The translations under genes and the position numbers were made by a program. Shown here in pieces: positions 1,361 to 58,255 of a stretch of DNA of 64,000 nucleotides (position 1 is the first letter of the stretch; every line of letters begins with the position of its first letter). Source of the stretch: Raja brachyura (taxonomy: Eukaryota); contig OY740785.1 of the NCBI GenBank assembly GCA_963514005.1, forward strand, positions 67,828,001 through 67,892,000, read 5' to 3'. The notes under the pieces were generated by a model. That model worked only from the letters and a program-made list of their open reading frames with translations, made no database searches and was not told the origin of the DNA.

Positions 1361-2430
1361 ATGTTGTATCGCCGAATCAATCTTTCTCAGGTCGGGGGTG
1401 CGGCGGCGTCGGAGGAAAGTTCTGGAATCTTTTTTGTAAAACGTCAATCAATCCTTCCCACGTGAATACTCCCACGGTGTATTGCTCCAAAGTTCTGGAG
1501 ATGAAACCACGCCCCTATTTGCTCCCCCACAATGAAACCATGAAAACACCAGGGGGAGGAGGGGACACACCCGACTGAAATGAAACCTCTCCCTTATCCC
1601 ACGCCCCCCCCCCCCCCACCCCAACACAGTGAAAACCCATATCTCACCACCCCCAGGAAAATTCTGGAAATGAAACTTCTCCCCTAATCCCCACCCCCCC
1701 CAACAATGACACGAGGAGCTCCCCCCATCCAACCCCCCTACCCCCCCAACATCTCCTCCCACAAAATCAAAATGAGATTCCATTGTGATGTACCCATTCC
1801 CCCAACGCAACCTGTTCCACCAACTATAGCCCCCAACTGCACAGGCGAGGTGCATGCACTCCCTCCCCCTCCCTCTTTACCCTCTCCTCCTCCACTCCCT
1901 CACCTCTCCCTCCCTCTTATCTCCCTCCCTCTCCTTTTCCCTACCCTTAGTCATTCCCTCCCTCACCTCTCTTCTTTCGTACTCCCGCACTAAACACAAT
2001 GTTTAAATAACATTTCTTTTCCTCCCCTCCCCCCACTCCTTACAACAATGTAAGAACTTATCCCAACACTTTTGATTGGCAGCTGAGATCCCATTGTGAT
2101 GTTATTGTCGGACACGGCAGCTTATGTAAATGAGATGCCATTGATTGGAGGACTGTGAGATCCCATTGTGACGTCATGGGTACAAACTGCCAGAATCTCC
2201 CATCAACTGTTAGAGCATCTGTCAAGTTTTTGCTCTCAAAGTGGGTTTTTTAAACTTTTAAATGTCAATAACTTCTGAAATATAAGATCAATCTGAACAA
2301 AACTTTATAAGAATGTCCACGAGACAAAGGTGAGTGTCGGTGTGCAAACATTTTAGTGCTATCGTGTACCGTTTTGGCATATGTCCCGGATCACATTAAA
2401 TCACATAGATAGATAGACAATGACAGTTGT
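1360..2430 (-). mobile_element. Helitron-like non-autonomous element, partial
   Basis: 2230-2430 is the reverse complement of the 5' region of the 6171 and 56912 copies (GCCAAAACG..ACGATAGCRCTA); C-rich interior; boundaries approximate. Confidence 0.6.
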
Positions 2431-5685: not shown

Positions 5686-5788
5686 ATTGGTGTTCCTAAT
5701 GCTCTTGACATCATGTTGACTGGGAAAAATATTCGTGCTGAAAAAGCCAAGAAATTGGGTTTGGTGGACCAGTTAGTTTCTCCCCTTG
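5686..5788 (+). CDS. HADHA: HADHA exon 7 equivalent
   Basis: 103 nt; [34 protein letters not shown]; CAG acceptor, GTAAGT donor. Confidence 0.96.
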
Positions 5789-6170
5789 GTAAGTCATTTC
5801 TAATATTTCCTAGCCATATATAGTCATATCTACCATCAAAAAATGTTTTTGTTTACCAACAGCCTAAACCTTGAACCGGATCATGCTTGTAATTCTCATT
5901 GATTTAGACAGCCTGTAATGGATCTACAGGTCTTTTTTCTTAAGCAATTGCACAAAGTGGTGATGTCCACAGTTGACAATTAGGTATCAACACCTGAGCC
6001 CTATTCCTGTCCCTGAAGACATTTTGACAACTTGTGTATCTGTTTAATCTTATTATCACGTCATTGAAAAACAATTTGAATATATTTAAACGATTAAAAA
6101 CATTCAGAAGATTCAAATAAAAAAATCAGATGTATTTTAAAACATTTGTCTGGTGTAAATTAAATGTAAT

Positions 6171-7813
6171 TCTATATACTACTAAAACTCTCATCTTGTC
6201 TGTGAGTGAGCATATTTGTTTGTTTGTCAGCTTTTAGTGATTTGAACTACGCCAAAACGATATACGATAGCGCTAAAAAATTTTGCGCCACCTCACTCAT
6301 AATTGTCTTGTGTAGTGTATCACGTTTCATTCAGATTGATGGTATAGTTTACAAGTTATTAACATTTTTTAATTTACAAAACCCCAATTTTAGAAAAATG
6401 TCTTCCCTGTGCTTACACAGGCATGAGATTTCTCCGCGGACCCACGGATTTCCGCGGATTTTGAAATTCGTTAAAAATCTAAATCTCTATAAATCTATAA
6501 ATGGCTTTCCGCGAGGGCGCCGATTGGACGAGAGGGTCATCGTCAGCAAGCAATGTGGGGGCGGGGCAAGATTCGGGGCGATGATTGGTGGAGGGAGGCA
6601 TCAGTCAGAGGTGGAAGTGGGGGGGGGGGGGGAATTGAGGATAGAGAGCGGTGATTGGAGGAGGGAGAAGTCCGGGTGGGACAAGGCGCGGCCTGGTGGA
6701 GTGAAGCGCAGGTAGCGGCGGCCCCGGGGGAGGGCAGCGGGAGAGTGGGCACTGGGTTGGGAAAGGCCGGGGTCTTGTCAGTGTCAAAAAGCATTTTAAA
6801 GCAAGTAGAGGAAGGATGTGTGGGCCCTGGTGAGCAGAGGGAGGAGTCTGTAAATGTGAACATAGGTAAGGGGGGGGGGGGGGAGAGAGTCCCTGTGAGT
6901 GTGAGCAGTGAAGGGTTCCCTGTGAGTGAGCAAAGGTGAAGGGTTTCCTGTGAGTGTGAGCAGTGAGGAGGTCTCTTGAGTGTGAGCAAAGATAAGGCGG
7001 GTGTCCCTGTGAGTGTGAGTGGGGAAGACCCTGCGAGAAATTAAGGGTAAACAAGCAAGAAAATTGTGTCATTGCAAGGTACAAATATCAAAAAAAATCT
7101 GCATATCATACCAGGGGTCAAAGTCCCATGGACCCCCATCTCTCATCCTCTTTTTTCAGGTTTTTCCTGTCTCATGCCTGTTACAGCTATGATGTCGCAA
7201 TGGGATTGTAGCCCTGCTTACATCATTGTTGATATCCAAGTACACTGAGTCCTGCTAGCCCTAGCCTGTGCAATTGCATTTTTTTTATTTAAAATGAGGG
7301 AGAGTGAATTAGGCAAAAATGAGCAGCCCCTGCGCAGTTGGGGGCTATGGGTGAGTGGTGGAATTTTGCATTGGAACGGGTGAGTGGTGGAATATTGCCT
7401 TGGGGAGTGGGTTGCATTTGGGGACCAGGCCTCCCGTGGGAGTTTGGATGAGTGGTGGAATATTGCGTTGGGGCAATGGTTGCATTGGGAGACCAGGCCT
7501 CCCGTGTGCCAGGGACCCAACGTGTCCCAGTTGGTAGACAAAAATGCTGGAGAAACTCAGCGGGTGAGGCAGCATCTATGGAGCGAAGGAAATAGGCAAT
7601 GTTTCGGACCGAAAGCCTTCTTCAGACACATCAGTCTGAAGCGGGTAGTGGGAGGGGAGGGTGGGAAGCGTGAAGAAGAAGGGAAGAGGTGGAGCCAGTA
7701 GGCTGAGGGAGAGCTGAGAAGGGGAGGAGAAAGTAAGGACTACCTGAAATTAGAGAAGCCAATGTTCATACCGCAGGGGTGCAAACTGCAGACCCGTGTC
7801 CCAGCTGGTCTCG
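6171..7813 (+). mobile_element. Helitron-like non-autonomous element
   Basis: 5' TCTATATACTACTAAAACTCTCATCTTG; 3' hairpin GGGACCCAACGTGTCCC; degenerate CTCG-T end; interrupted by a Penelope-like fragment. Confidence 0.72.
7536..7794 (-). mobile_element. Penelope-like terminal fragment inserted in the Helitron 3' end
   Basis: Same repeat as 16270-16755; flanked by a 15-bp duplication CGTGTCCCAG(T/C)TGGT at 7521-7535 and 7795-7809. Confidence 0.75.
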
Positions 7814-8039
7814 TATTAAACTAAAATTTACTAAAGAAAACACAGCTCATTTTGTCTCTTCCACCTAGATTGGCAAATGTGCTCTCTCAAAAATTTAGCC
7901 ATGGCTCCCATGAACATAGATAATAAGTAGGACCTTCAGTGCTTTCTACCATTCAATATAATTGTGGGAGATAATCTACTTCAATACCCATTTCCTGCCT
8001 TTTCCCCATATCCAGATTCCATTTGGCATTAAGGGATGG

Positions 8040-8787
8040 GGTGTGTGTGCATGTGTCAAACTCGGCGCAAACTGCTCGGCCACCCTGCAATCCAACTCTC
8101 CTTCTGCCCACTCCGCTCAGCCGCAAGGCGGGGCCTGTCCCTGCCCACCCGCCTACCTGCTCGATGCCGGGGGGGGGGGGGGGGGGGGGAGTTGGTGTTC
8201 GTCACGGTGGGCACCACGTATTTTGATGATCTCCGAGAAGGCCATTAGGGTGAGTTACTGCAACGGTTGCGGCGAAGGAGACAGACCTGGAGGGACAGGT
8301 AGATAGGACCGCCATTGCCGCAGAGGGGGAGCGGGGAAGAGGGGTGAGTGATGAGGGAGAGAGAGACCAGAGAGAGTCCACTGAGGCCTCCACTATCTAT
8401 CGTCTCCCCCCCCGGCGGTGGGGGAGACGATAGATAAGTTACTGTGAGAAGGGGAGAGAGGAGTTTGTGAGTGAGGTAGGACAGGCCCCCGCCGGTGGGA
8501 CAGGAAGGGGCGTCGCCATACCGGCCTCACTCCCGGAGAAGAGACCAATCTGCGGGGCGATGACTGAAGGAATCTGCGCACGCGTGGTTTTTAAGATTTT
8601 TAAACCTCGATAACTTTTACAATATACCACCAATCATAACGAAACTTGGTGCACTTGCAGCACAGGAGAACGCTGAGTAACCTGCCGTGAAATCGTAACT
8701 CTATCTCGTGCCGTTTTTGTGCAAATAGAAAAAGCCCGCAAACCGGAAGAGCACAAGATCAGTTTTAGTTATGTATGGATAGATAGA
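8040..8787 (-). mobile_element. Helitron-like element (5' part) carrying captured GC-rich DNA
   Basis: - strand begins TCTATCTATCCATACATAACTAAAACTGATCTTGTGCTCTTCCGG, homologous to the other copies' 5' ends; 3' terminator not seen. Confidence 0.65.
8190..8255 (+). pseudogene. ALG13: ALG13 first-exon fragment with intron donor (frameshifted, no start codon)
   Basis: LVFVTVGTTYFDDL matches the ALG13 N-terminus (human MKCVFVTVGTTSFDDL, from memory); after a short deletion SEKAIR then GTGAGT. Confidence 0.75.
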
Positions 8788-9525
8788 TGGCCCGAAATGA
8801 AACAATAAAATTCTTGCTTGCTGCAGCACAACAGATATGTAAGTATGGTACTCCGTACCACAAACCTTGTATTTCCCAATCTGTCACCCAGTGTATCCAA
8901 CCCCTTAGCTCAAAATATGAATGCTATGAGCCAGGACTGGGTGCCAAGTCCAGTGGTGGAGAGGTCAGTAACTCACCAAGAAGACCCGGCTGGTAGAACC
9001 TACTGATTAATTTTTACTAATTTGAATTTATGTCATCGACTGATGAGACATTATTGCTCTGAAGACTAGCCTAGATGGGGCGTCTTGGTTGGCATGGATG
9101 AGTTGGGCCGAATTGTGCTGTATGCCAAGATACTGGCCCGCAAAGTCAGTTTTGGAAGTCAGCTATGGGAACCGATCTGCCGCCTCTGGCCAGGCTGGAG
9201 TTCCAGAACTCCGTTCCAGTTGCCGAAAAAGTGGTGACTGACGTACTTTCATTACTGGAAAGGGAAGAAGATTGGCATGAATGTACCCGATCAAGAATCA
9301 AGATTGTTTAATTGTCACATGTACCAGCAACAGAGCAATGAACATTTTACTTGCTGCAGCTTAACAGGCCTGTAAAACACAATAAACACAGATGAAATAT
9401 AATAATCAAAAATGCAATAAATGAATAGCTTTAATGGGCGGAACTTTAGCCATATTCCAGTGCTGAAACATGATAATTAAAACTTTGTCTGTAGTTAAAA
9501 TTGCAATAATTTTTAATTTTCATAG

Positions 9526-9648
9526 GGCCTGGGTTGAAAAGTCCAGAAGAGAGGACAGTGGAATACTTGGAAGAAGTTGCAATTGATTGTGCCAGAGGAA
9601 TAGCAAATAAACAGATCTCCCTCAACAAGGACAAGAAAATGATGGACA
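9526..9648 (+). CDS. HADHA: HADHA exon 8 equivalent
   Basis: 123 nt; [41 protein letters not shown]; GTAAGT donor. Confidence 0.95.
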
Positions 9649-9719: not shown

Positions 9720-10419
9720 TAAAAATCAAGTCTGCAATTTCTCCCCTCAGATATAGAATAAAAAGCTTAATATGACACCTAATTCACTTTCCTATCTTCA
9801 GTATTAAAAAGGTTAGTATAATAATATTGACTATGGATAGACCATAGCACAAAATATAGACGATTTAGATGCTCTTATGACATGATTGTCCAAAAAAAAG
9901 AGCATTTAAATCATCTTGCAAGTGGGTTTTTCTGGAACACGATTGATTGCAACGTTGCATTTGCGGTGACTTTTAACTCCATATCGGCAGGAAAAACACT
10001 GCCGGTTCGTATGGGGCCCAAATCAAATTTTCGCAACGTAAAATTAGATCAAAGCCATCCCAAGAAGCAAGATTATATGTAAAATAGACGACTTACCCTT
10101 TGTTTTGTCCCGTTCATGCGATTCGTCACGTTATACGCGTTGTGGGCATTAGAAGTTGCTTTTTATTTTAATCTAATTATTAAATTGTCTCGCGACTTTA
10201 AAAATAAATTTTAAAAAATCAGGGACGGAAGTCGGATCGATTATTCTTCAGCAGATAGCAGCCCGAGGAAATCCGACTCGGACAGGTGGTAGAAAAATGG
10301 ATTTGAATCCTCCCACCCCACCCCACCCCACCCCCCCCCACCCAAAAGGCGCCAAAGTCGCGCACACGGCCAGTGGCAGAACTGCAGCGCCGCTGAAGGT
10401 AGGTTTTGTAACATCGTTA
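9720..10419. mobile_element. hAT-like non-autonomous DNA transposon, copy 1 (deleted)
   Basis: Homologous to 20133-21318; ends in TIR TTGTAACATCGTTA. Confidence 0.7.
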
Positions 10420-10589
10420 CTCTATGGCAGCATTGGCCAGGCCCACTCATAGATGAACTGAGGCCCAGGCCAATTTCAATTTTAGAGGCCCCCAAACCAA
10501 GATCAAGCAGAGGCTCCTCAATTTTAGAGGCCCCCAAATCAAGATCCCTTTGAAGCAGTGAGGCATGAGACTCTTGCCAAATGGCACTC

Positions 10590-11956
10590 ATTGCTCTTCC
10601 ATTGACTCAGCACAAAAGCTGTGATCCAGGACATTCAAAAGCTCATAACTTTCTTAAAAATTACGAGAACTGAATGAAATTTTCAGTTATTATAGATTGA
10701 ACCATTCTGAAACAAATATAAAACATCTTACTTGGATGACGTGCAATTAAAGCATATAATTAGTTAATTACCTAATTGTAGCTAATTACAAAATTGACCG
10801 TTGTGACGGAAATAGTAATAAACACCCAGACTGCCTTGAAAATTAAAAAAATTGATATTCTCAAGATCAGAACTTTAATATTATTGTATTATATGCTGTA
10901 AGTCCGTAACAGATAGGTAAATAAATTACAATTTCTAGCAATAGACCAAGTCTTTATGGAGAAGATCAATTGCTAGCTGGTACATTAGCATATCATAATC
11001 AGTAGCATCATACTCCTCATTGTAACCAATAAGCAACTCTGTACACCTTGTTTTCCTCAACTTTTCAATTTTGGCATTGTAAACTACAAGTTTTTGCTCT
11101 TCAAACCATGCATGACATGCCTTTCTGCCCACTACTTTCCCATTAAGAATGTCCTGTAGATTCAATTTCTTACGAAAGTGATATTTTTTTTAAATAGCCT
11201 AAGTATCCAAATAACAAACTAATCCCATTCACACAAGAATTCACAATATAACATGATTTTAAAATCTCATTGTCATGAATTTATATGCCAGATGGAAGGA
11301 ATTTAATGTTTAATTCCCATAAATTAATCAAGAAACATCCACTCAAAATATAATAAAAATTATTGTTTTTTGCACAATACATCTGACTCAAACTGTTGTG
11401 AATAATTAGTTTAAAAATAATGATCATGGAGAGAGAATAACACAAAATATAGACAATTACATGATTGTTAAAAAAAACGGGCATTTTAATCATCTTGCTA
11501 CTGGAACGCGATCGATTGGAACGTTGCATTTGCGGTGAATTTGAAGCCCATATCGGAGGAAAGACACTGCAAATCGTATGGGGCCCAAACAACATTTTTG
11601 CAATGTAAAATTAGATTAAAGCCATCCCATGAAGCAAGATTATATGTAAAATAAACGACTTACCCTTTGTTTCGTCCCGTTCTTGCGATTCGTCACGTAG
11701 GCGTTGAGGGCGTTAGAAGTCACATTTTATTTTAATCTAATTAAATGGTCTAGCGATTTAAAAAAACAAAACAAACCGGGAACGGAAGTCCGATCGATTT
11801 TTCTTCCACAGCTAGCAGCCCAAGGAAATACCTCTCCGACAGGCAGTACAAAACTGGATTTTATTTCCCCCCCCCCCCCCAAAAAATCAACAAACCGTGC
11901 ACACGGCCAGTGACAGAACTGCAGCGCCACTGAAGGTAAGTTTTGTAACATCGCCA
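10590..11956 (-). mobile_element. hAT-like DNA transposon, copy 2, retaining a coding remnant
   Basis: Homologous to 20280-21318; right TIR TTGTAACATCGCCA; extra internal segment with a - strand ORF at 10935-11165. Confidence 0.7.
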
Positions 11957-12461
11957 CGCACGCACGCATGCGCACGCACGCACACACACTTGTATAGAGA
12001 TGGTATTTATTTATAATGTCATGGTTATGACATTATTTATCCATAGCTGTTCACGAAGGATTAGTTGTCAAATTCAAACCATTGCAAACACTTCGATGTT
12101 GACATTAAAGTATGCTGTTGTGTGGAAGAAAACTCTTGTGGAAAGTGGCTCAGCAGTAAGTAGCTGAGCTAAATTTTAATTTTTGTTTTTTGTTGTTAAT
12201 TTAATATTTGAGTCATAATAATGGGACTACAGATTGGTATTTTTATACTATTAGATTAGAATCTAATGCTACTATTAGATTATGTGAGACGAATTTAGCC
12301 AAGATCATTGTTCCTGATTATTGCTCATTGATTCCCGTTGAAAATGGTCACATGCATTTCTCAGGTTTTTAATTCATCTTAGCACCAGCTAGGACATAGT
12401 AAAATTTACAGTTATACTTTACTGTTGTTGTTAGATGTGCTTTTAATAGGCAATATATTAT

Positions 12462-16755: not shown

Positions 16756-17699
16756 CGGTGCTACTACTTAATCTTTACTAGCATTCAAGTTACTTAAACA
16801 TGCATGCAAACCACTAACTTCTAATAATTTCTCAGTTGCTTCACTATTCCAGCTTATCACTTCTTGCACTAAAACATAAAACTCATGGACTCAGATATTA
16901 CTTATATAATGAATAGGCCAGATTCACTCTATTGAACTCTTATCTGAGCTTCAGACTCGGGTCCCTCCTTCTACGAATGCTTGTTCCTGGGTTGTTACTG
17001 CTGATGTCTTTGACTGCCCTTCGTTTATACTATTTTTTCCTTCAACCTTCTTAAGGAAGCTTTTGTTCTAATCAAAGGCTATCAAGACCCTGATCATTTA
17101 TTTTGTGTCACTCATCCAAAGATTGGATAAAGAAAACACATCTTCCTTCCTTATCAGGCTAGAGAAATCTTAATTATGTAATTCTATTTTCATTCTCACC
17201 ATAATCCCTTTGCAAAATGGCTGTTCCCAGCCACCTTATCTTCTCAAGGCCACACAGCCTTGCCATGAAGTTACCTTCAGTTTTGCTCTCACCAGATGTC
17301 AATCGCATGACCGTTTTCACAGTGCTCCATTGTTTTTGTGGGTCCAGGATTTCTCACTCTCTAGCTAACAGCATCCTCCCAAAGCCTATCGGGATACTTG
17401 ATACTCTTGCTTTTCATTTCATCTGTCTTTTTTTTTAAACTTGGATGTATAATTGTGATCAAGATTAAATCTTCCCCACCATTATTCCCCTCCCCAAATT
17501 TTTGACTTGATTTCAGTTTAGTTTGTTGTCACGTGTACCACTTAATTTTTTTTACACCACACATCAGTGAAGCTCTGCCATAGTTGGTGTTCTTTGCAAA
17601 TGTAATTCCTTTCAAAACATTAGAATATTGTTGGCACAACAAGGAAAATGTGTTTCTGCTGTTATCATGGGATGTGATAACCACTTGTAAAGGTTGTAT

Positions 17700-20132: not shown

Positions 20133-21318
20133 TGTAATGTTACAACATTTTGAGATTTAAAGATCAAGTCTGCAATTTATCCCATCAGACAAAGAAGTTG
20201 AATTTGATCCTAATTCACTTCAGTATTAAAAAAGTTATGGCCATTTTCATACTCGGAAATTAGCATCTTGTTCCCTATTGCTTTTCCATTGACCTAATTC
20301 AAAAGCTGTGATCGAGGACAGTCAAAAGCCCATAACGTTCTTAAAAGTTAAGAGAACTGAATGAAATTTTCAGTTATTATAGATAAAGTTAAACGCTAAA
20401 ACAAATAGTAAATACCCAACGATAAAATTCATATTCATCAGCTTCATCCAATCAATGTAATCAATTAAATTAATCTAAATTCAATTACTAGACTATCTAA
20501 ATTGATCTAAACTATCAATTTCTTAAGAAAAGGTTAACATTTTTAAATAGCCTAAGTGTCCAAATAACATTCACACAAGAATTCACAATATAACATGATT
20601 TTTAAATCTCAGTCATGAACATAGGCCAAATGGAAGGAATTTAATGTTTAATTCCCATAAATTAATCCAGACACATCCACTCAAAATATAATAAAAATTA
20701 TTGTTTTTGCACAACACATGTGACTCAAACTGTTGTGAATATTTAGTTTAAAAATAATGATCATGGAGAGAGAATAACACAAAATATAGACAATTTAGAC
20801 GGATTATGACATGATTGTCCAAAACAAAAGAGCATTTTAATCATCTTGCGAGTGGGTGATTCTGGAACGCGATTGATTGGAACGTTGCATTTGCGGTGAA
20901 TTTGAACCCCATATCGGCAGGAAGGACACTGCCGGTTCGTATGGGGCCCAAATAACATTTTCGCAACGTAAAATTAGATTAAAGCCATCCCAAGAAGCAA
21001 GATTAAATGTAAAATCAACGACTTACCCTTTGTTTTGTCCCTTTCTTGCGATCCGTCACGTTGTAGGCGTTAGAAGTTGCTTTTTATTTCAATCCAATTT
21101 TTAAATTGTCCATCGAATTAAAAAATAAAAAATAAACCTGGAACGGAAGTCCGATTTTCTTCATCTGCTAGCAGCCCGAGGAAATCTGTCTCCGACAGGC
21201 AGTACGAAACTGCATTTTAATACATCCCCCCCCCCCCCCCCCCCAAGGCACCAGAGTCGCGCACACGGCCAGTGGCAGAACTGCAGCACCGCTGAAGGTA
21301 AGTTTTGTAACATCGCTA
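20133..21318. mobile_element. hAT-like non-autonomous DNA transposon, copy 3 (both ends)
   Basis: TIRs TGTAATGTTACAA / TTGTAACATCGCTA; 8-bp TSD CTTTATGT (20125-20132) vs CTTTATGC (21319-21326). Confidence 0.78.
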
Positions 21319-21409
21319 CTTTATGCTATTATCTATGTTAAGTTCGGTGAGCAAATGCAGTTTTCTGTTGTCACAACATTTGTATATATTATACAATTGT
21401 TTTTTGCAG

Positions 21410-50725: not shown

Positions 50726-52627
50726 TATACTTTTAAAACTGTGTGTGTGTGTGTCTGCCGACTGGGTGTGTGTCTTGTGGGTGTATGTCACATTCCATTT
50801 TTTTTTTCAGATAAGATTTTTGGCCTTTGATTCCATGGTCCGCCAAAACCAGACCCTAAAACGCTGTGATTTTTTCCATTTTGCTAGACATTATGCTTTT
50901 ACATTCACTAATGCACTCCTCATTACATTTAGACTTTTTTACGTATTTTAAATAAAATCATTTACATCTGCCTTTGCACCAGCCCCAGCCCCAGCCCCAA
51001 CCCTGCCCCCCCGCAGCCTGTGTCGAAGCGCATGATCACGTGTGTGAGACTAGACAAAGAGGATTGGGGGTGATAGGGAGTGGGGAATAGATGGGCTGCC
51101 CCTACCCCTCCCCTCCCACTCTACTGCCCCACTCTTTCCCCTCTCTCCTCCCACCCCTCTCCCCCTCCCCCACACCTTTCCCCCTCCCCTCCCCACTCTT
51201 CCCCCTCCCACTCTTCCCCCTTTCTCCCCTACCCCATCTCCCTCCTCCCCCTCTCCATCTCCCTCTCCTTACCCCTCTCCCCACTCCTCCTCCTACCCCC
51301 ATCCTTCTCTCCCCACCCCCTTCCGTCTCTCCCCCACCCCCTTACGTCTCTCTCCCTCCCTCTTCCCCCTAGCCCTCTGTCCCTCTTCCACCACTCCCCC
51401 TACCCCCTCCCCTCCCTCCCTACTCTTCCACTTCTCTCCCCCTTCCCCCACCCCTCTCCCTCCCCCACACTCTCTCTCTCCCTCCCTCCCTATCTCCCCC
51501 ACCCCTTCCCCCTACTCCCTCTTCCACCACTCCCCCCTCCTCTTCTCCATCCTTCTCTCCCACTTCCACCTCCCCCCTACACCTCTAAACCCTCTCCCTC
51601 CTCCCCTCCCACCCCCTCTCTCACCCCCCACCCCCCTTCACCCTCATCTCCCCTCCACCCCTTCCCTTCTCTCTTGCACCACTCCCTGCTACCCCTCTCC
51701 CCCTCACTCCCCACTCTTCCCATCTCCCTCCCCCTCCCCACCCCTCCCCTTTTTCTCTCTCTCCCCCTCCTCTCTCTCACCCTCCTCTCTCGCCCCTCCA
51801 CTCTCTCTCCACCTCTCCCCTCCCCTTCCCTCTTCTCTCCACCCCTCTCCACTAACCTCCCTTCCCCTCTCCTCTCCACTCCCGTTCCCCACTGCTCTCT
51901 ACCCCCCTCACCCACCCTCCCCACCTCCCCCCTGCCCTCCTACCCGTCTCCTCCTTTACCCTCACCACTATCCTCCCCTCCCCATCCTCATCCCCCTCTC
52001 TTTCCCTTCCCCTACCCTCTCCTCCCCCTCCCCACTCTCCCCATCTTCCCCTCCCCACTTTCTCCCCATCTCCCCCTCCCCACTCTCTCCCCATCTCCCC
52101 CTCCACCTCCTCACTCTCTCCCCATCTCCCTCTCCCCACCCTCCCCCCCCTCACTCACCCATCCTCTCCACCCCTCCACCCCCCACTCTCTCTGTCTCTT
52201 GCCCTTCTGTCTCTCTGTCTCTCCCCACTCTCTCTCTGCCCTCACTCTAACTCCCCGCCCCCCCCCCCCTCCCCCCAGACGGGCCTGCGAGTTGGGGGCT
52301 ATGCGTCAGTGGATAGGGCGGTTAGGAGCAAATTAATAATATTAATATAATATCAAGGGGGGGTAGTTAGTGTGTGTGACGCCTCATGTGACGCCTCCGC
52401 CACACACCCCACTTCCCTCCCCTCCCATACATGAAGAGGAAGGGGAGGGAGTTCTCGGGGTTGAGGGGGAATGAGCCGCGCCTGCGCAGTTAGGGTCTAT
52501 GGGTGAGTGGTGGAATATTGCGTTGGGGGAACGGTTTGCATTGGAAGAACGGGTGAGTGGTGGAATATTTTGTTGGGGGGCCAGGCCTCCTGTGTGACTG
52601 GGACCCAACGGGACCCACTGAGTCTAG
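50726..52627 (+). mobile_element. Helitron-like element, tandem unit 2
   Basis: Starts TATACTTTTAAAAC immediately after unit 1's CTAG; ends GGGACCCAACGGGACCC-ACTGAGTCTAG|T; host LINE rejoins at A|T with no TSD. Confidence 0.8.
51098..52276. repeat. Polypyrimidine (C/T) low-complexity tract
   Basis: About 1.2 kb, paralogous to the tract in unit 1. Confidence 0.95.
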
Positions 52628-54169
52628 TCAACAATAAAAATAGAGGAGGTGGAGAGGCTGTTCAGAACACAGAAAAGCCGGAAATCTCCAGGACCAGACA
52701 ATGTTTCCCCCTCTACTCTCAAGCCATGTGCCGAACAACTGGCATTTTCAATCAGTCCCTGCAAACCTGTACTGTCCCTGCCTGCTTCAAAGTCTCCACT
52801 ATTGTCCCTGTACCCAAAAAGGCAAGGATTACTGGTCTTAATGACTACAGGCCTGTCGCACTGACCTCTGTAGTCATGAAGACCCTTGAAAGACTTGCTG
52901 GCCAAGCTGAAAAATATCACAAACTCTCTGCAGTTTGCATAGCGGGGTAATAGATCTGTGGATGATGCAGTCAACCTGGGCCTGCACTTCATCCTACAGC
53001 ACCTAGACCGCCAGGGGACCTATGCGAGGATTTTGTTTGTTGATTTTAGCTCTCATTCAACACCATTGTGCCAGAGCTACTACACTCCAAACCTTCCGAG
53101 TTGACTGTGCCTGAACCCCTCTGTTGGTGGATCACACCTTCCTGATAGACAGGAAGCAGCATGTGAGGCTCGGAAAGCACATCTTAGACCCGCAAACCCT
53201 CAGCATAGGAGCACCGCAAGGCTGTGTATTCTCCCCTCTCCTCTACTCACTCTACACCAATGACTGACTCCTCTGTCCAGCTTCTCAAGTTTGCGGATGA
53301 CACAAACCTGATTGGACTGATCCAGGATGGGGAGGAATCTGCCAACAGACAGGAAGTGTCACAGCTGGCGTCCTGGTGCCATTGCAACAACCTGGAGCTC
53401 AATGCTCTTAAGACAGTGGAATTGATTGTAGACTTTAGGAGAGCTCCCCCTTCCCTCACCCCACTCACCATCAACAACACCACAGTCACATCTGTGGAGT
53501 CCTTTAAGTTCCTGGGAACCATCATCTCCAAGGACCTTAAATGGGGGGCTACCATCTATTCCACAGTCAAAAAGGCACAACAGATGATGTACTTCCTGCG
53601 GCAGCTGAGGAAGCACAATCTGCCACAGGCAATGATGGTCCAATTCTATACGGCCATTGTAGAGTCGGTCCTCACCTTCTCCATCAGGGTCTGGTTTGGC
53701 TCAGCCACCAAGCACGACATCCGGAGGCTGTAACAAATCATCCGATCAGCTGAGAAGGTTATTGACTGTAACCTTCCCTCCATTGACGAACTGTACACTG
53801 CAAGGGCCAGGAAGCGAGTGGGTAACATCATCGCTAACCCTTCTCACCTTGGCCACAAACTCTTTGAATCATTTTCCCCTGGAAGGTGACTCGGGACAGC
53901 TTTTAAAAACAGCTTTTTTCCACGAATAGTAGCTCTACTCAATAACAAAAATATGTAGCCTCCTTTTGCTCTTGAATTTTATTTAATTCACATGTTTAAT
54001 CAATAATGTTTTATTATTAGTGTTTAATGTTATATGTTTCATTCCTAACTGTCACTGTATGTCATGTCACTTGTGGGCGGAGCAACAAGGCAAATTCCTT
54101 GTATGTGTATACTTGGCCAATAAACGTATTCATTTATTCATTCAAATTTATTACATCCAACTTGTTTAT

Positions 54170-56570: not shown

Positions 56571-56911
56571 ACTGCTGAAGTGAATATTTAAATGTTTGAC
56601 AGATCAAAGATTGGATGTGCGCATGCAAGAGAGAGTGATAGCTTTATAATACTCCATTTATGAACCAGGCAAAAAGATTAGCAGAAGCATTGAAAACGCA
56701 AACTCTAAAGACAAATGTTTACAAATTCTCTCTCCACTAATATAGCCCTGGCCAGCTGAATACATCCAGCATTTTCTTTGTATAAGGAATCTTATAAAGT
56801 AACTGGTAGGGCATGTCATTTGAGATGACGAACTCCAAACATGTGTACGACCCTGTTGAACTTAATGCGGCATAGCTAGAGCCTGATATTGAGCATTCAT
56901 CACTTTGACCA

Positions 56912-58255
56912 TCTATACACTTACAAAACTCTCATCTTGTCCTCTTCTGGTTTTTGTTGTTTTCAAATTTGTGCAAAAACGGTACCCGATAGCGCTACGA
57001 TTTTGCACAAGTGCATCAAGTTTTGTGAAATATTACAAACGTTATTGGTCTTCTGTCTGTCATTCGCCGGGATGGCGTCGCCCCTTCCGGTACCCGCTGT
57101 CAAGTACCGGCGGCAAGAATAAAGCTGAAGGAGCGGAGCGAGCAGAGTGTGGGCTGGGGCTGTGTTCGCGGGCGGGGAGGGAGGGCTGTGTTCGCAGGCG
57201 GTGGGAGGCTGTGTTCGCGGGCGGCTGGGGCTGTGTCCGCGGATGGCGGTGGCAGAGACCACCACTACAAGCCGGGAGCCGCTGAGTGCAACAGGGGCCG
57301 GGGACGGGAGCCGCTGAATGAGTCCAGAGCTGGGTCCTGGTATTGATGGTGTGGTGAGAGCCCGGAGCCCACACACCCCCCTCCCACACCACACACATGC
57401 TCCCCACCACACACACTCCGTCCCACGTACACCCCCCCAACATACACCCCCTCCCCTACCCCCACCCCCACAACCCTCCCTCCCCGCCCACAAACCCCTC
57501 TCCCCTCCCACCCAGGCACCCATCCCCTCTCCTGCCCACACACCCATCCCCTCTCCTGCCCACACACCCATCCCCTCTCCTGCCCACACTGCTACCCCAC
57601 ACCCCCTCCTCATCACCCCCCTCCCCCCTACATGCCTACCACCCACACACCCTTTCCCTCTCCCGCCCACACCGCTCTCCCACACCTCGCCTTCCCCCAC
57701 ACCCCGCCTTACCCCACACCCCCCCTCCCCCACACCCCACCTTCCCCACACCCCCTCCCCCCCACTCCTGCCCCCACCCCCCCCCCACTCACACACCCCC
57801 ACAACCCTCCCACCCCACACCCCCTGCCACAACCCTCCCACATCACACCCCCTCGCCACAGCGGTAGGCCGCGGCAGGGGCAGGCAGGGGTAGGCAGCGG
57901 CACTGGCAGGCCATATTTTAAGAGTTATTCACATTTTAAGCTTTAATAAATCCCTTTGCCACTTGTCGTGCCCATCAGCTGCGCCTGCGCAATAATACCT
58001 GCATGTTCTACGTTACAATGGGTGAGAATAGCTGTGCTGCCGCAGAGCTGCCAATAGTGGACGGAGGGGGGGGGGGGGGGTTGAAGGGGGATGGAGTGAG
58101 TGCGTGGGGGGGAAGGGCAATGGGCAGAGTGTGGGGAGGGTGAGGGGAGGAGGGGGGATCAAGGGCGTCACAATGGGAACCTGTCAGCCGCGTCTGCACT
58201 GTGGGGGGCTATGCGCGAGTGGTGGAATATTGCATTGGGGGACCGCTTAGTCTAG
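56912..58255 (+). mobile_element. Helitron-like element with CpG-rich interior
   Basis: A|TCTATACACTTACAAAACTCTCATCTTG start; ends CTTAGTCTAG|T, no TSD; 3' hairpin partly deleted; GGCTGTGTTCGCGGGCGG minisatellite and C-rich tract inside. Confidence 0.78.

What the first reader, a model, noticed from the sequence alone, without database searches (positions are those of the whole stretch)
8190..8560. ALG13 first exon and intron start captured inside a Helitron-like element in HADHA intron 7
Seen: 8192-8233 reads LVFVTVGTTYFDDL. After an apparent small deletion the frame shifts to SEKAIR, followed at once by a consensus donor AGG|GTGAGT (8250) and ~300 bp of GC-rich sequence. This runs into a Helitron-type 5' end on the opposite strand at ~8787. 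Known (from memory): ALG13, the UDP-GlcNAc transferase subunit, begins MKCVFVTVGTTSFDDL and has a short first coding exon. Helitron capture of promoters and first exons is documented in maize and Myotis bats. Inference: this is a DNA-level capture, since the intron is retained, rather than a retrocopy. I am not aware of it being described in cartilaginous fish. The fragment and its donor are in the HADHA sense orientation. Caveat: this copy's 3' terminator is not visible.
Basis: partly seen in the sequence, partly recalled or inferred. Interest (0 to 1): 0.8.

Follow-up and report, generated by a model that had tools for sequence, protein, structure and literature searches.

The report
Rolling-circle transposon carrying ALG13's first exon
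In a skate-like fish, a jumping gene picked up the start of an essential sugar-processing gene and copied it to hundreds of places in the genome, much as already seen in bats; the copy here is a decayed half-piece with no sign of a function.

Summary
Confirmed. Window 8041-8787 (minus strand) is the 5' half of a non-autonomous Helitron of about 1.5 kb. Its family carries about 505-530 bp of the host ALG13 gene: 5' flank, the whole 27-codon exon 1, the GT donor and about 105 bp of intron 1. The native gene lies on another chromosome (G000:C13:8803051); the family consensus matches it at 77.8% over 555 columns. The exon-donor 25-mer occurs at 379 sites against 0 for the control. Full-length copies have A|TC and CTAG|T ends, a 3' hairpin, no long target duplication, and empty sites. 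The window copy has lost its ATG, has a 17-bp deletion and lacks its 3' half; its left junction is shared by three other organisms. Captured exons evolve near-neutrally (pN/pS 0.75-0.89). Correction: only about 115 bp after the donor is ALG13 intron, not 300. The architecture is that of bat HelibatN3/NUBPL, so this is a new member of a known kind. My literature searches found no report in cartilaginous fish. Promoter or splicing activity was not shown.

The parts
8041..8787 (-). 5' half (consensus positions 40-919 of about 1,640) of a non-autonomous Helitron that carries ALG13 sequence; breaks off at the family's GT microsatellite, 3' half absent
   Evidence: 77 of 747 aligned bases differ from the 15-copy consensus, 49 of 625 outside CpG
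8495..8787 (-). Helitron's own 5' region: A|TC terminus at 8787 and internal sequence related to sister subfamilies and to a RepHel-coding element
   Evidence: consensus 250-335 beat all 200 shuffles in 4 of 6 sister elements
8366..8494 (-). GC-rich spacer of the family (consensus 335-465), source not identified; holds a small local inverted repeat at 8394-8436
   Evidence: no match above shuffles in 6 of 6 sister elements; no clear match in 50 kb around native ALG13
8250..8365 (+). captured start of ALG13 intron 1, beginning with the intact donor GTGAGT; corresponds to about G000:C13:8803132-8803236
8190..8249 (+). remnant of ALG13 coding exon 1: ATG lost into a G run, 17-bp deletion after 8229, TAG at 8246-8248 in the ALG13 frame
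   Evidence: native exon at G000:C13:8803051-8803131
8041..8189 (+). captured ALG13 5' flank (5' UTR and probably proximal promoter; start site not mapped), shortened by internal deletions
   Evidence: 73.5% over 136 columns to C13:8802795-8802927
8121..8249 (+). possible cryptic cassette exon (pyrimidine-rich CAG acceptor to the captured donor, 129 nt, in frame with HADHA, stop codon at its end); hypothetical, and the frame depends on the length of a 21-G run
   Evidence: sequence and conceptual translation only; use not shown
5686..5788 (+). HADHA exon upstream of the element (exon 7 by recalled human numbering)
9526..9648 (+). HADHA exon downstream of the element (exon 8 by recalled human numbering)
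6171..7815 (+). separate sister Helitron on the opposite strand, without ALG13 sequence; its 3' end is split by a high-copy SINE-like insert at about 7533-7790. Not the missing half of the ALG13 copy

Best explanation
Once, in an ancestor of this skate-like lineage, a non-autonomous Helitron took up about 505-530 bp of genomic ALG13 (5' flank, exon 1, start of intron 1), antisense to its own direction. A RepHel protein supplied in trans then copied the element by rolling-circle transposition into AT sites, at least 379 times. The HADHA intron copy is one old insertion that later lost its 3' half, its ATG and 17 bp of exon, and is most likely neutral. Shown: source locus, element ends, AT target, copy number, shared derived states across copies, decay, presence in related organisms. 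Inferred: the capture route (I put 0.55 on 3'-end bypass ending at a second Helitron's 3' end, 0.35 on internal insertion during gap repair, 0.10 on other routes), the identity of the mobilising element, and neutrality of this copy.
For: Native ALG13 exons 1-4 on C13; exon 2 is 93% identical to Leucoraja ALG13 P0001, whose first 27 residues match exon 1. Consensus 465-998 matches C13:8802732-8803236 at 77.8%, E 2.7e-127, with no family terminus in that 50 kb. Majority exon differs from native at 4 of 81 bases. Among 20 full-length copies with clean ends, 16 have A before TC, 19 have T after the end, 14 have no target duplication and 6 have 1-4 bases; 2 give clear empty-site matches, 91% over 90 nt and 82.5% over 63 nt. 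3' hairpin folds in 4 of 4 tested ends, z -0.6 to -3.6 (one is a sister element). At 63 non-CpG columns where native and consensus differ, each of 90 copies shares the native state at 12 or fewer, which fits one capture (some columns are alignment noise). A decayed Rep plus PIF1 element at about C13:50163900-50170740 has a 5' end 70% alike and a related CTAG|T 3' end. pN/pS 0.75, 0.89 outside CpG, in the two copy sets not chosen on the donor. Left junction at 8041 bridged by contigs of organisms C, D and E.
Against: The window copy itself has no 3' terminus, so its Helitron status rests on its 5' end and family membership. The RepHel element found is only related (70% at the 5' end), not shown to be the partner; 5 other RepHel loci examined gave no such paired ends. 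No parental element lacking ALG13 but holding both flanking segments was found in 30 of 30 loci, and no Helitron end remains beside native ALG13, so the route is undecided. The hairpin was not significant against shuffles in 2 of 4 ends. The right junction at 8787 was not bridged by any listed contig. Neutrality is shown for the family's coding remnant only, not for promoter or splice function.
Confidence: 0.92

Rival explanations
1. Same origin, but the HADHA copy is functional: it acts as a weak alternative promoter or as a cassette 'poison' exon (8121-8249) that sends HADHA mRNA to nonsense-mediated decay.
For: Sense orientation, intact consensus donor, a pyrimidine-rich acceptor at 8120, 129-nt length in frame with HADHA and a stop just before the donor. 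The insertion is shared with three other organisms. Bat HelibatN3 copies splice into downstream exons (PMC4778049, passages read).
Against: ATG lost; much of the 5' flank deleted. Divergence from consensus (7.8% outside CpG) is about the family median (8.4%), so no sign of extra constraint. The frame depends on a 21-G run. GT is kept in 84 of 90 copies anyway (28 of them were chosen on the donor). One run holds the normal exon 7 to 8 joint at depth 748.
Confidence: 0.06
2. Processed pseudogene (retrocopy) of ALG13 that landed in or beside a Helitron.
For: Retroposed mRNAs inside Helitrons occur in bats (PMC4224331, passages read).
Against: The exon is followed by the genomic donor and about 105 bp of intron 1, not by exon 2; 5' flank of about 320-350 bp is carried as well; no poly(A) or duplication around the insert in the consensus.
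Confidence: 0.01
3. Direction reversed, or chance: the native ALG13 5' end was derived from the repeat, or the peptide likeness is accidental.
For: The native locus has changed since capture (Ala at codon 2 where the family, Leucoraja and several sharks have Glu or Asp; an expanded minisatellite in intron 1).
Against: The 27-residue exon is the normal ALG13 N-terminus in 7 of the 10 homologues listed and follows an N-terminal extension in an eighth. The family piece ends inside a high-copy repeat remnant that continues at the native locus. Control pattern count is 0.
Confidence: 0.01

Closest known systems
HelibatN3 of Myotis lucifugus (NUBPL capture; PMC4224331, PMC4778049)
   Same: Non-autonomous Helitron holding promoter/5' UTR, first exon and part of intron 1 of a host gene, amplified to high copy number (a thousand copies there, at least 379 here); TC/CTAG ends, hairpin, AT target.
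   Different: Different gene and lineage; 27 codons here against 6; promoter and splicing activity were shown for HelibatN3 and are untested here.
HelibatN217.1 (TMBIM4), HelibatN211 (SRPK1), HelibatN539 (KCNQ5) in bats (PMC4224331)
   Same: Captures biased to the 5' end of genes; for N539 a compound of two Helitrons, which is my preferred route here.
   Different: For N539 the parental Helitron ends were still visible beside the gene; none is visible in 50 kb around this ALG13.
Heli1Xen1 of Xenopus laevis (PMC12001565)
   Same: Non-mammalian vertebrate Helitron capture, 17 of 19 fragments from gene 5' ends.
   Different: There each capture spread little (64 insertions in all, 17 for the example given as most copied), and that paper says captured fragments are generally oriented with the Helitron; here one capture reached hundreds of copies and is antisense.

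Membership tests
Helitron (canonical, non-autonomous) | 5' end begins TC after a host A | tested here: met
   A before TC in 16 of 20 full-length copies; window copy A|TC at 8787
Helitron (canonical, non-autonomous) | 3' end CTAG followed by host T (family level) | tested here: met
   TCTAG|T in 38 of 71 terminal matches in 92 loci, sister elements included; T follows in 19 of 20 full-length copies
Helitron (canonical, non-autonomous) | 3' end present on the window copy | tested here: not met
   copy stops at consensus 919; no terminus on that strand in the window. It is a truncated member
Helitron (canonical, non-autonomous) | GC-rich hairpin shortly before the 3' end | tested here: met
   6-8 bp stem in 4 of 4 ends folded; z -2.8, -3.6, -0.6, -1.35
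Helitron (canonical, non-autonomous) | No target-site duplication; precise insertion shown by empty sites | tested here: met
   0 bases in 14 of 20, 1-4 bases in 6; clear empty sites for L086 and L118; three further hits lay in microsatellite or Helitron-end sequence and were not counted
Helitron (canonical, non-autonomous) | RepHel-coding partner sharing the ends | tested here: inconclusive
   96 Helitron_like_N matches in the genome; 1 of 6 loci examined has related 5' and 3' ends on the right strand, 70% at the 5' end
HelibatN3-type 5' gene capture | Host 5' flank, first exon and partial intron 1 inside the ends, with parental gene elsewhere | tested here: met
HelibatN3-type 5' gene capture | Amplification to many dispersed sites | tested here: met
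   142 sites within 1 mismatch, 379 within 3, control 0
HelibatN3-type 5' gene capture | Captured promoter drives transcripts that splice from the captured donor | tested here: inconclusive
   no RNA holder on record; only assembled contigs could be laid, 15 of 377 joints shown
Processed pseudogene | Exons joined without introns | tested here: not met
   donor and intron follow exon 1; GT kept in 84 of 90 copies
Helentron / DINE-1 type (features recalled) | Insertion into TT targets | tested here: not met
   target is A|T
Helentron / DINE-1 type (features recalled) | Subterminal inverted repeats; endonuclease domain in the partner | not tested
   no search made

The most novel reading that the evidence does not exclude
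The family works as a portable promoter, first exon and splice donor in skates: a fair share of copies still read ATG to GT without a break (10 of 30 and 4 of 25 in the two sets not chosen on the donor), so some of the several hundred copies may start or truncate transcripts of other genes, or act as poison exons, as HelibatN3 does in bats. With about 17,460 sites bearing the same 3' end, skates may be a second vertebrate lineage with large-scale Helitron promoter shuffling. The HADHA copy itself would be a poison exon at best (about 0.06).
Probability: 0.3. Interest if true: 0.72.

Novelty: new member of a known kind. Interest (0 to 1): 0.48.

Why it matters
It extends Helitron capture of gene 5' ends from bats and frogs to what appears to be a cartilaginous fish, with one capture reaching hundreds of copies. 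That supports the idea that captured housekeeping-gene 5' regions favour amplification or are favoured in capture, a bias whose cause the Xenopus paper calls unexplained. It gives a directly testable set: copies with and without intact ATG and donor, in both orientations, shared among several related species. Practically, these copies can mislead read mapping, primer design and annotation at ALG13. For HADHA itself nothing functional is shown.

Tried and rejected
Pfam scans of the 22-26 aa exon peptides found 0 families; PDB searches with native exon 1 and exon 2 found 0: too short, no evidence either way. Chimeric proteins starting with the captured exon: 6 hits among 14 candidates, all annotated ALG13; 3 hits among 1.84 billion representatives, two unnamed ALG13 exon-1 read-throughs of 38 and 84 aa and one repeat protein; weak searches. 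No RNA holder listed for the region. In one search no joint from 8249 or to 8121 appears among the 15 of 377 joints shown; contigs show presence only, so this is not evidence of absence; run X18 is labelled 'RNA? (probably DNA)' though it holds a spliced HADHA contig. The idea that the 6171-7815 element is the missing 3' half was rejected: opposite strand, own 5' end. The idea that consensus 250-335 is a second captured gene was rejected: sister subfamilies carry related sequence. A parental element without ALG13 was not found in 30 of 30 loci (28 with the exon hit or flanks, others deletion forms); 0 of 30 loci picked by the 3' end carried ALG13. A younger subfamily closer to native was sought in 7 copies with the native-like Arg codon: they share 12 or fewer of 63 native states, so none shown. 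The first pN/pS (0.81) used a consensus with one CpG-decay site and donor-selected copies and was replaced. No tree was built. Earlier scan findings: three look-ups returned nothing.

Full report
Setting. The window is G000:C5:67828001-67892000 in a 2.70-Gb assembly. It holds HADHA on the plus strand: 9528-9647 matches residues 227-265 of the human trifunctional enzyme subunit alpha (E 2e-10), and exons of 134, 139, 103 and 123 nt lie at 511, 868, 5686 and 9526. By human exon sizes that I recall, 5789-9525 is intron 7. The host is inferred to be a skate or close relative, because exon 2 of its ALG13 is 93% identical to the Leucoraja protein and 74-83% to the shark and sawfish proteins listed.

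Observation. The peptide, the frame shift, the donor at 8250 and the minus-strand 5' end at 8787 are all present. The deletion is 17 bp; the ATG has been lost into a G run; the ALG13 frame ends in TAG at 8246-8248.

Native gene. A Pfam PF04101 search gave 37 matches, two of them exon-sized on C13. In the 50 kb fetched there lie exon 1 at 8803051-8803131 (27 codons, phase-0 GT), exon 2 at 8808926, exon 3 at 8811494 and exon 4 near 8813500. Exon 1 matches the start of 7 of 10 listed homologues, and an eighth after an N-terminal extension. The window matches the native 5' region at 73.5% over 136 columns and 66.3% over 255.

Family. The query 8190-8400 gave 501 candidates, of which 40 were scored (76-85% identity apart from self). 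The exon-donor 25-mer occurs at 142 sites within one mismatch and 379 within three, with 0 for the reversed control; a neighbouring internal 25-mer occurs at 485 sites. Of 68 copies examined, 41 showed the 5' motif, 35 the 3' motif and 24 both within the fetched flanks. A consensus from the 15 copies of 1.4-1.7 kb reads, in element orientation: Helitron 5' region (40-335), spacer of unknown source (335-465), ALG13 piece antisense (465 to about 1010), purine-rich spacer, Helitron 3' region with hairpin and CTAG. Consensus 465-998 matches C13:8802732-8803236 at 77.8% over 555 columns (E 2.7e-127), and nothing else of the consensus matched in those 50 kb at the cut-off used. So about 320-350 bp of 5' flank, the 81-bp exon and about 105 bp of intron were taken. 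The start site of transcription was not mapped, so 'promoter' is an inference from position and GC content.

Helitron features. Among 20 full-length copies with clean ends, 16 have A before TC and 19 have T after the end; 14 have no target duplication and 6 have 1-4 bases. Joined flanks of L086 and L118 match uninterrupted repeats (91% over 90 nt; 82.5% over 63 nt); three other hits lay in microsatellite or Helitron-end sequence and were set aside. The hairpin folds in 4 of 4 ends, clearly above shuffles in 2. These are the features given for Helraiser in PMC4778049 (passages read). The genome has 96 Helitron_like_N matches. Of 6 such loci examined, one (C13, about 50163900-50170740) has a 5' end 70% alike over 194 columns, a PIF1 frame and a related CTAG|T end on the same strand; it is a relative, not a proven partner. 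The 3' 25-mer occurs at 17,460 sites (control 1), and 0 of 30 of these loci carried ALG13, so the ALG13 family is roughly 2-3% of a large Helitron population.

One capture, old, near-neutral. At 63 non-CpG columns where native and consensus differ, none of 90 copies shares the native state at more than 12 (part of these columns are alignment noise). The majority exon differs from native at 4 of 81 bases; at codon 2 the family keeps Glu like Leucoraja while the native gene has Ala. Median divergence from consensus is 8.4% outside CpG; the window copy is at 7.8%. In the two copy sets not chosen on the donor, pN/pS is 0.75, or 0.89 outside CpG (95/41 and 61/18 changes, indel-free copies only), and 10 of 30 and 4 of 25 copies are still open from ATG to GT. 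Contigs from runs of organisms C, D and E span 7760-8085, 7762-8115 and 7761-8115, bridging the break at 8041, with 13-20 differences in 326-360 bases; a contig of C covers 8204-8590 with 9 gap letters, so it shares the 17-bp deletion. Insertion and truncation therefore predate these splits. The 8787 junction was not bridged by a listed contig.

Mechanism. Rolling-circle copying by RepHel in trans is inferred from the ends and from established Helitron biology. For the capture, the 3' end is shared with thousands of sister elements, so a terminator newly recruited from host DNA is unlikely. I favour bypass from an element in intron 1, reading through exon 1 and the flank to a second Helitron's 3' end (0.55), the compound model described in PMC4224331 section 15 (read), over insertion during gap repair (0.35). 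Against both, no Helitron end survives beside native ALG13 and no parental element was found in 30 loci. Native intron 1 now has a long minisatellite right after the captured part, which may have erased the evidence.

Function at HADHA. An intact copy would splice out of frame into exon 8 and stop after three codons. The window copy has no ATG. A 129-nt cassette 8121-8249 would be in frame with a stop at its end, a possible poison exon, but this is sequence inspection only and depends on a 21-G run. One run holds a 5,027-nt contig joining exon 7 to exon 8 at depth 748, a joint absent from the three DNA-type runs. I give a function here 0.06.

Comparison. [quoted passage not shown] PMC4778049 (passages) shows splicing from that donor. 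PMC12001565 (passages) reports 19 fragments in 64 insertions in Xenopus, 17 from 5' ends, and does not mention sharks or skates. The present element has the same architecture, so it is a new member of a known kind.

Not found in print. 'Helitron' with 'ALG13' gave 0 papers; with 'skate' 2, one the whale shark paper, which lists Helitrons as present in one sentence (passage), the other seen in the listing only; with 'chondrichthyan' 7 and with 'cartilaginous fish' and 'capture' 9, seen as listings, with passages read for PMC4350176 and PMC5381603; broader searches showed nothing on this. The little skate genome paper has 0 occurrences of 'Helitron' in its main text. Supplements were not read and may list Helitron content; the library lacks most subscription papers; Repbase and Dfam were not searchable.

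Verdict. Real and well supported; mechanism class known; the lineage, the gene and the scale are new as far as searched; no function shown. Interest 0.48.

Noticed in passing
G000 genome-wide; L147-L176: About 17,460 sites carry the same Helitron 3' end. Several sister subfamilies have an internal promoter-like stretch (GC box and TATAAAA-like motif, names recalled) followed by tandem repeats. Other gene captures were not surveyed.
   Followed up: partly
window 6171-7815 (+), 1792-2378 (-), 52432-52628 (+), 56910-58241 (+): At least four more Helitron pieces of sister subfamilies lie in HADHA introns of this window, none with ALG13 sequence.
   Followed up: partly
L053:3270-4270 (G000:C13:8803270-8804270): Native ALG13 intron 1 holds about 1 kb of a GC-rich minisatellite of roughly 35-45 bp units directly after the captured part.
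   Followed up: no
L053:3051-3056: Native ALG13 starts Met-Ala here, where the Helitron family, Leucoraja and several sharks have Met-Glu or Met-Asp; the family keeps the older state.
   Followed up: partly
L099 (G000:C3:132638304 and 132641713); L116 (G000:C3:49647992 and 49649244): One inverted pair and one tandem pair of ALG13-carrying copies lie within a few kb of each other.
   Followed up: no
L064, L084, L097, L098, L025 5' ends: Several copies begin directly behind the 3' end of another Helitron, suggesting head-to-tail insertion or arrays.
   Followed up: no
L114:5904 to L115:2739 (G000:C13, about 50163900-50170740): A decayed RepHel-coding Helitron of about 6.8 kb with both ends related to the family.
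   Followed up: partly
L032-L050 (C17, C21, C36): Clusters of single-exon frames of 475-600 aa match PF04101 weakly; probably UDP-glycosyltransferase gene arrays (my inference).
   Followed up: no
window 9892-10426, 11574-11963, 20822-21325: Three related copies of another interspersed repeat, 73-93% alike.
   Followed up: no
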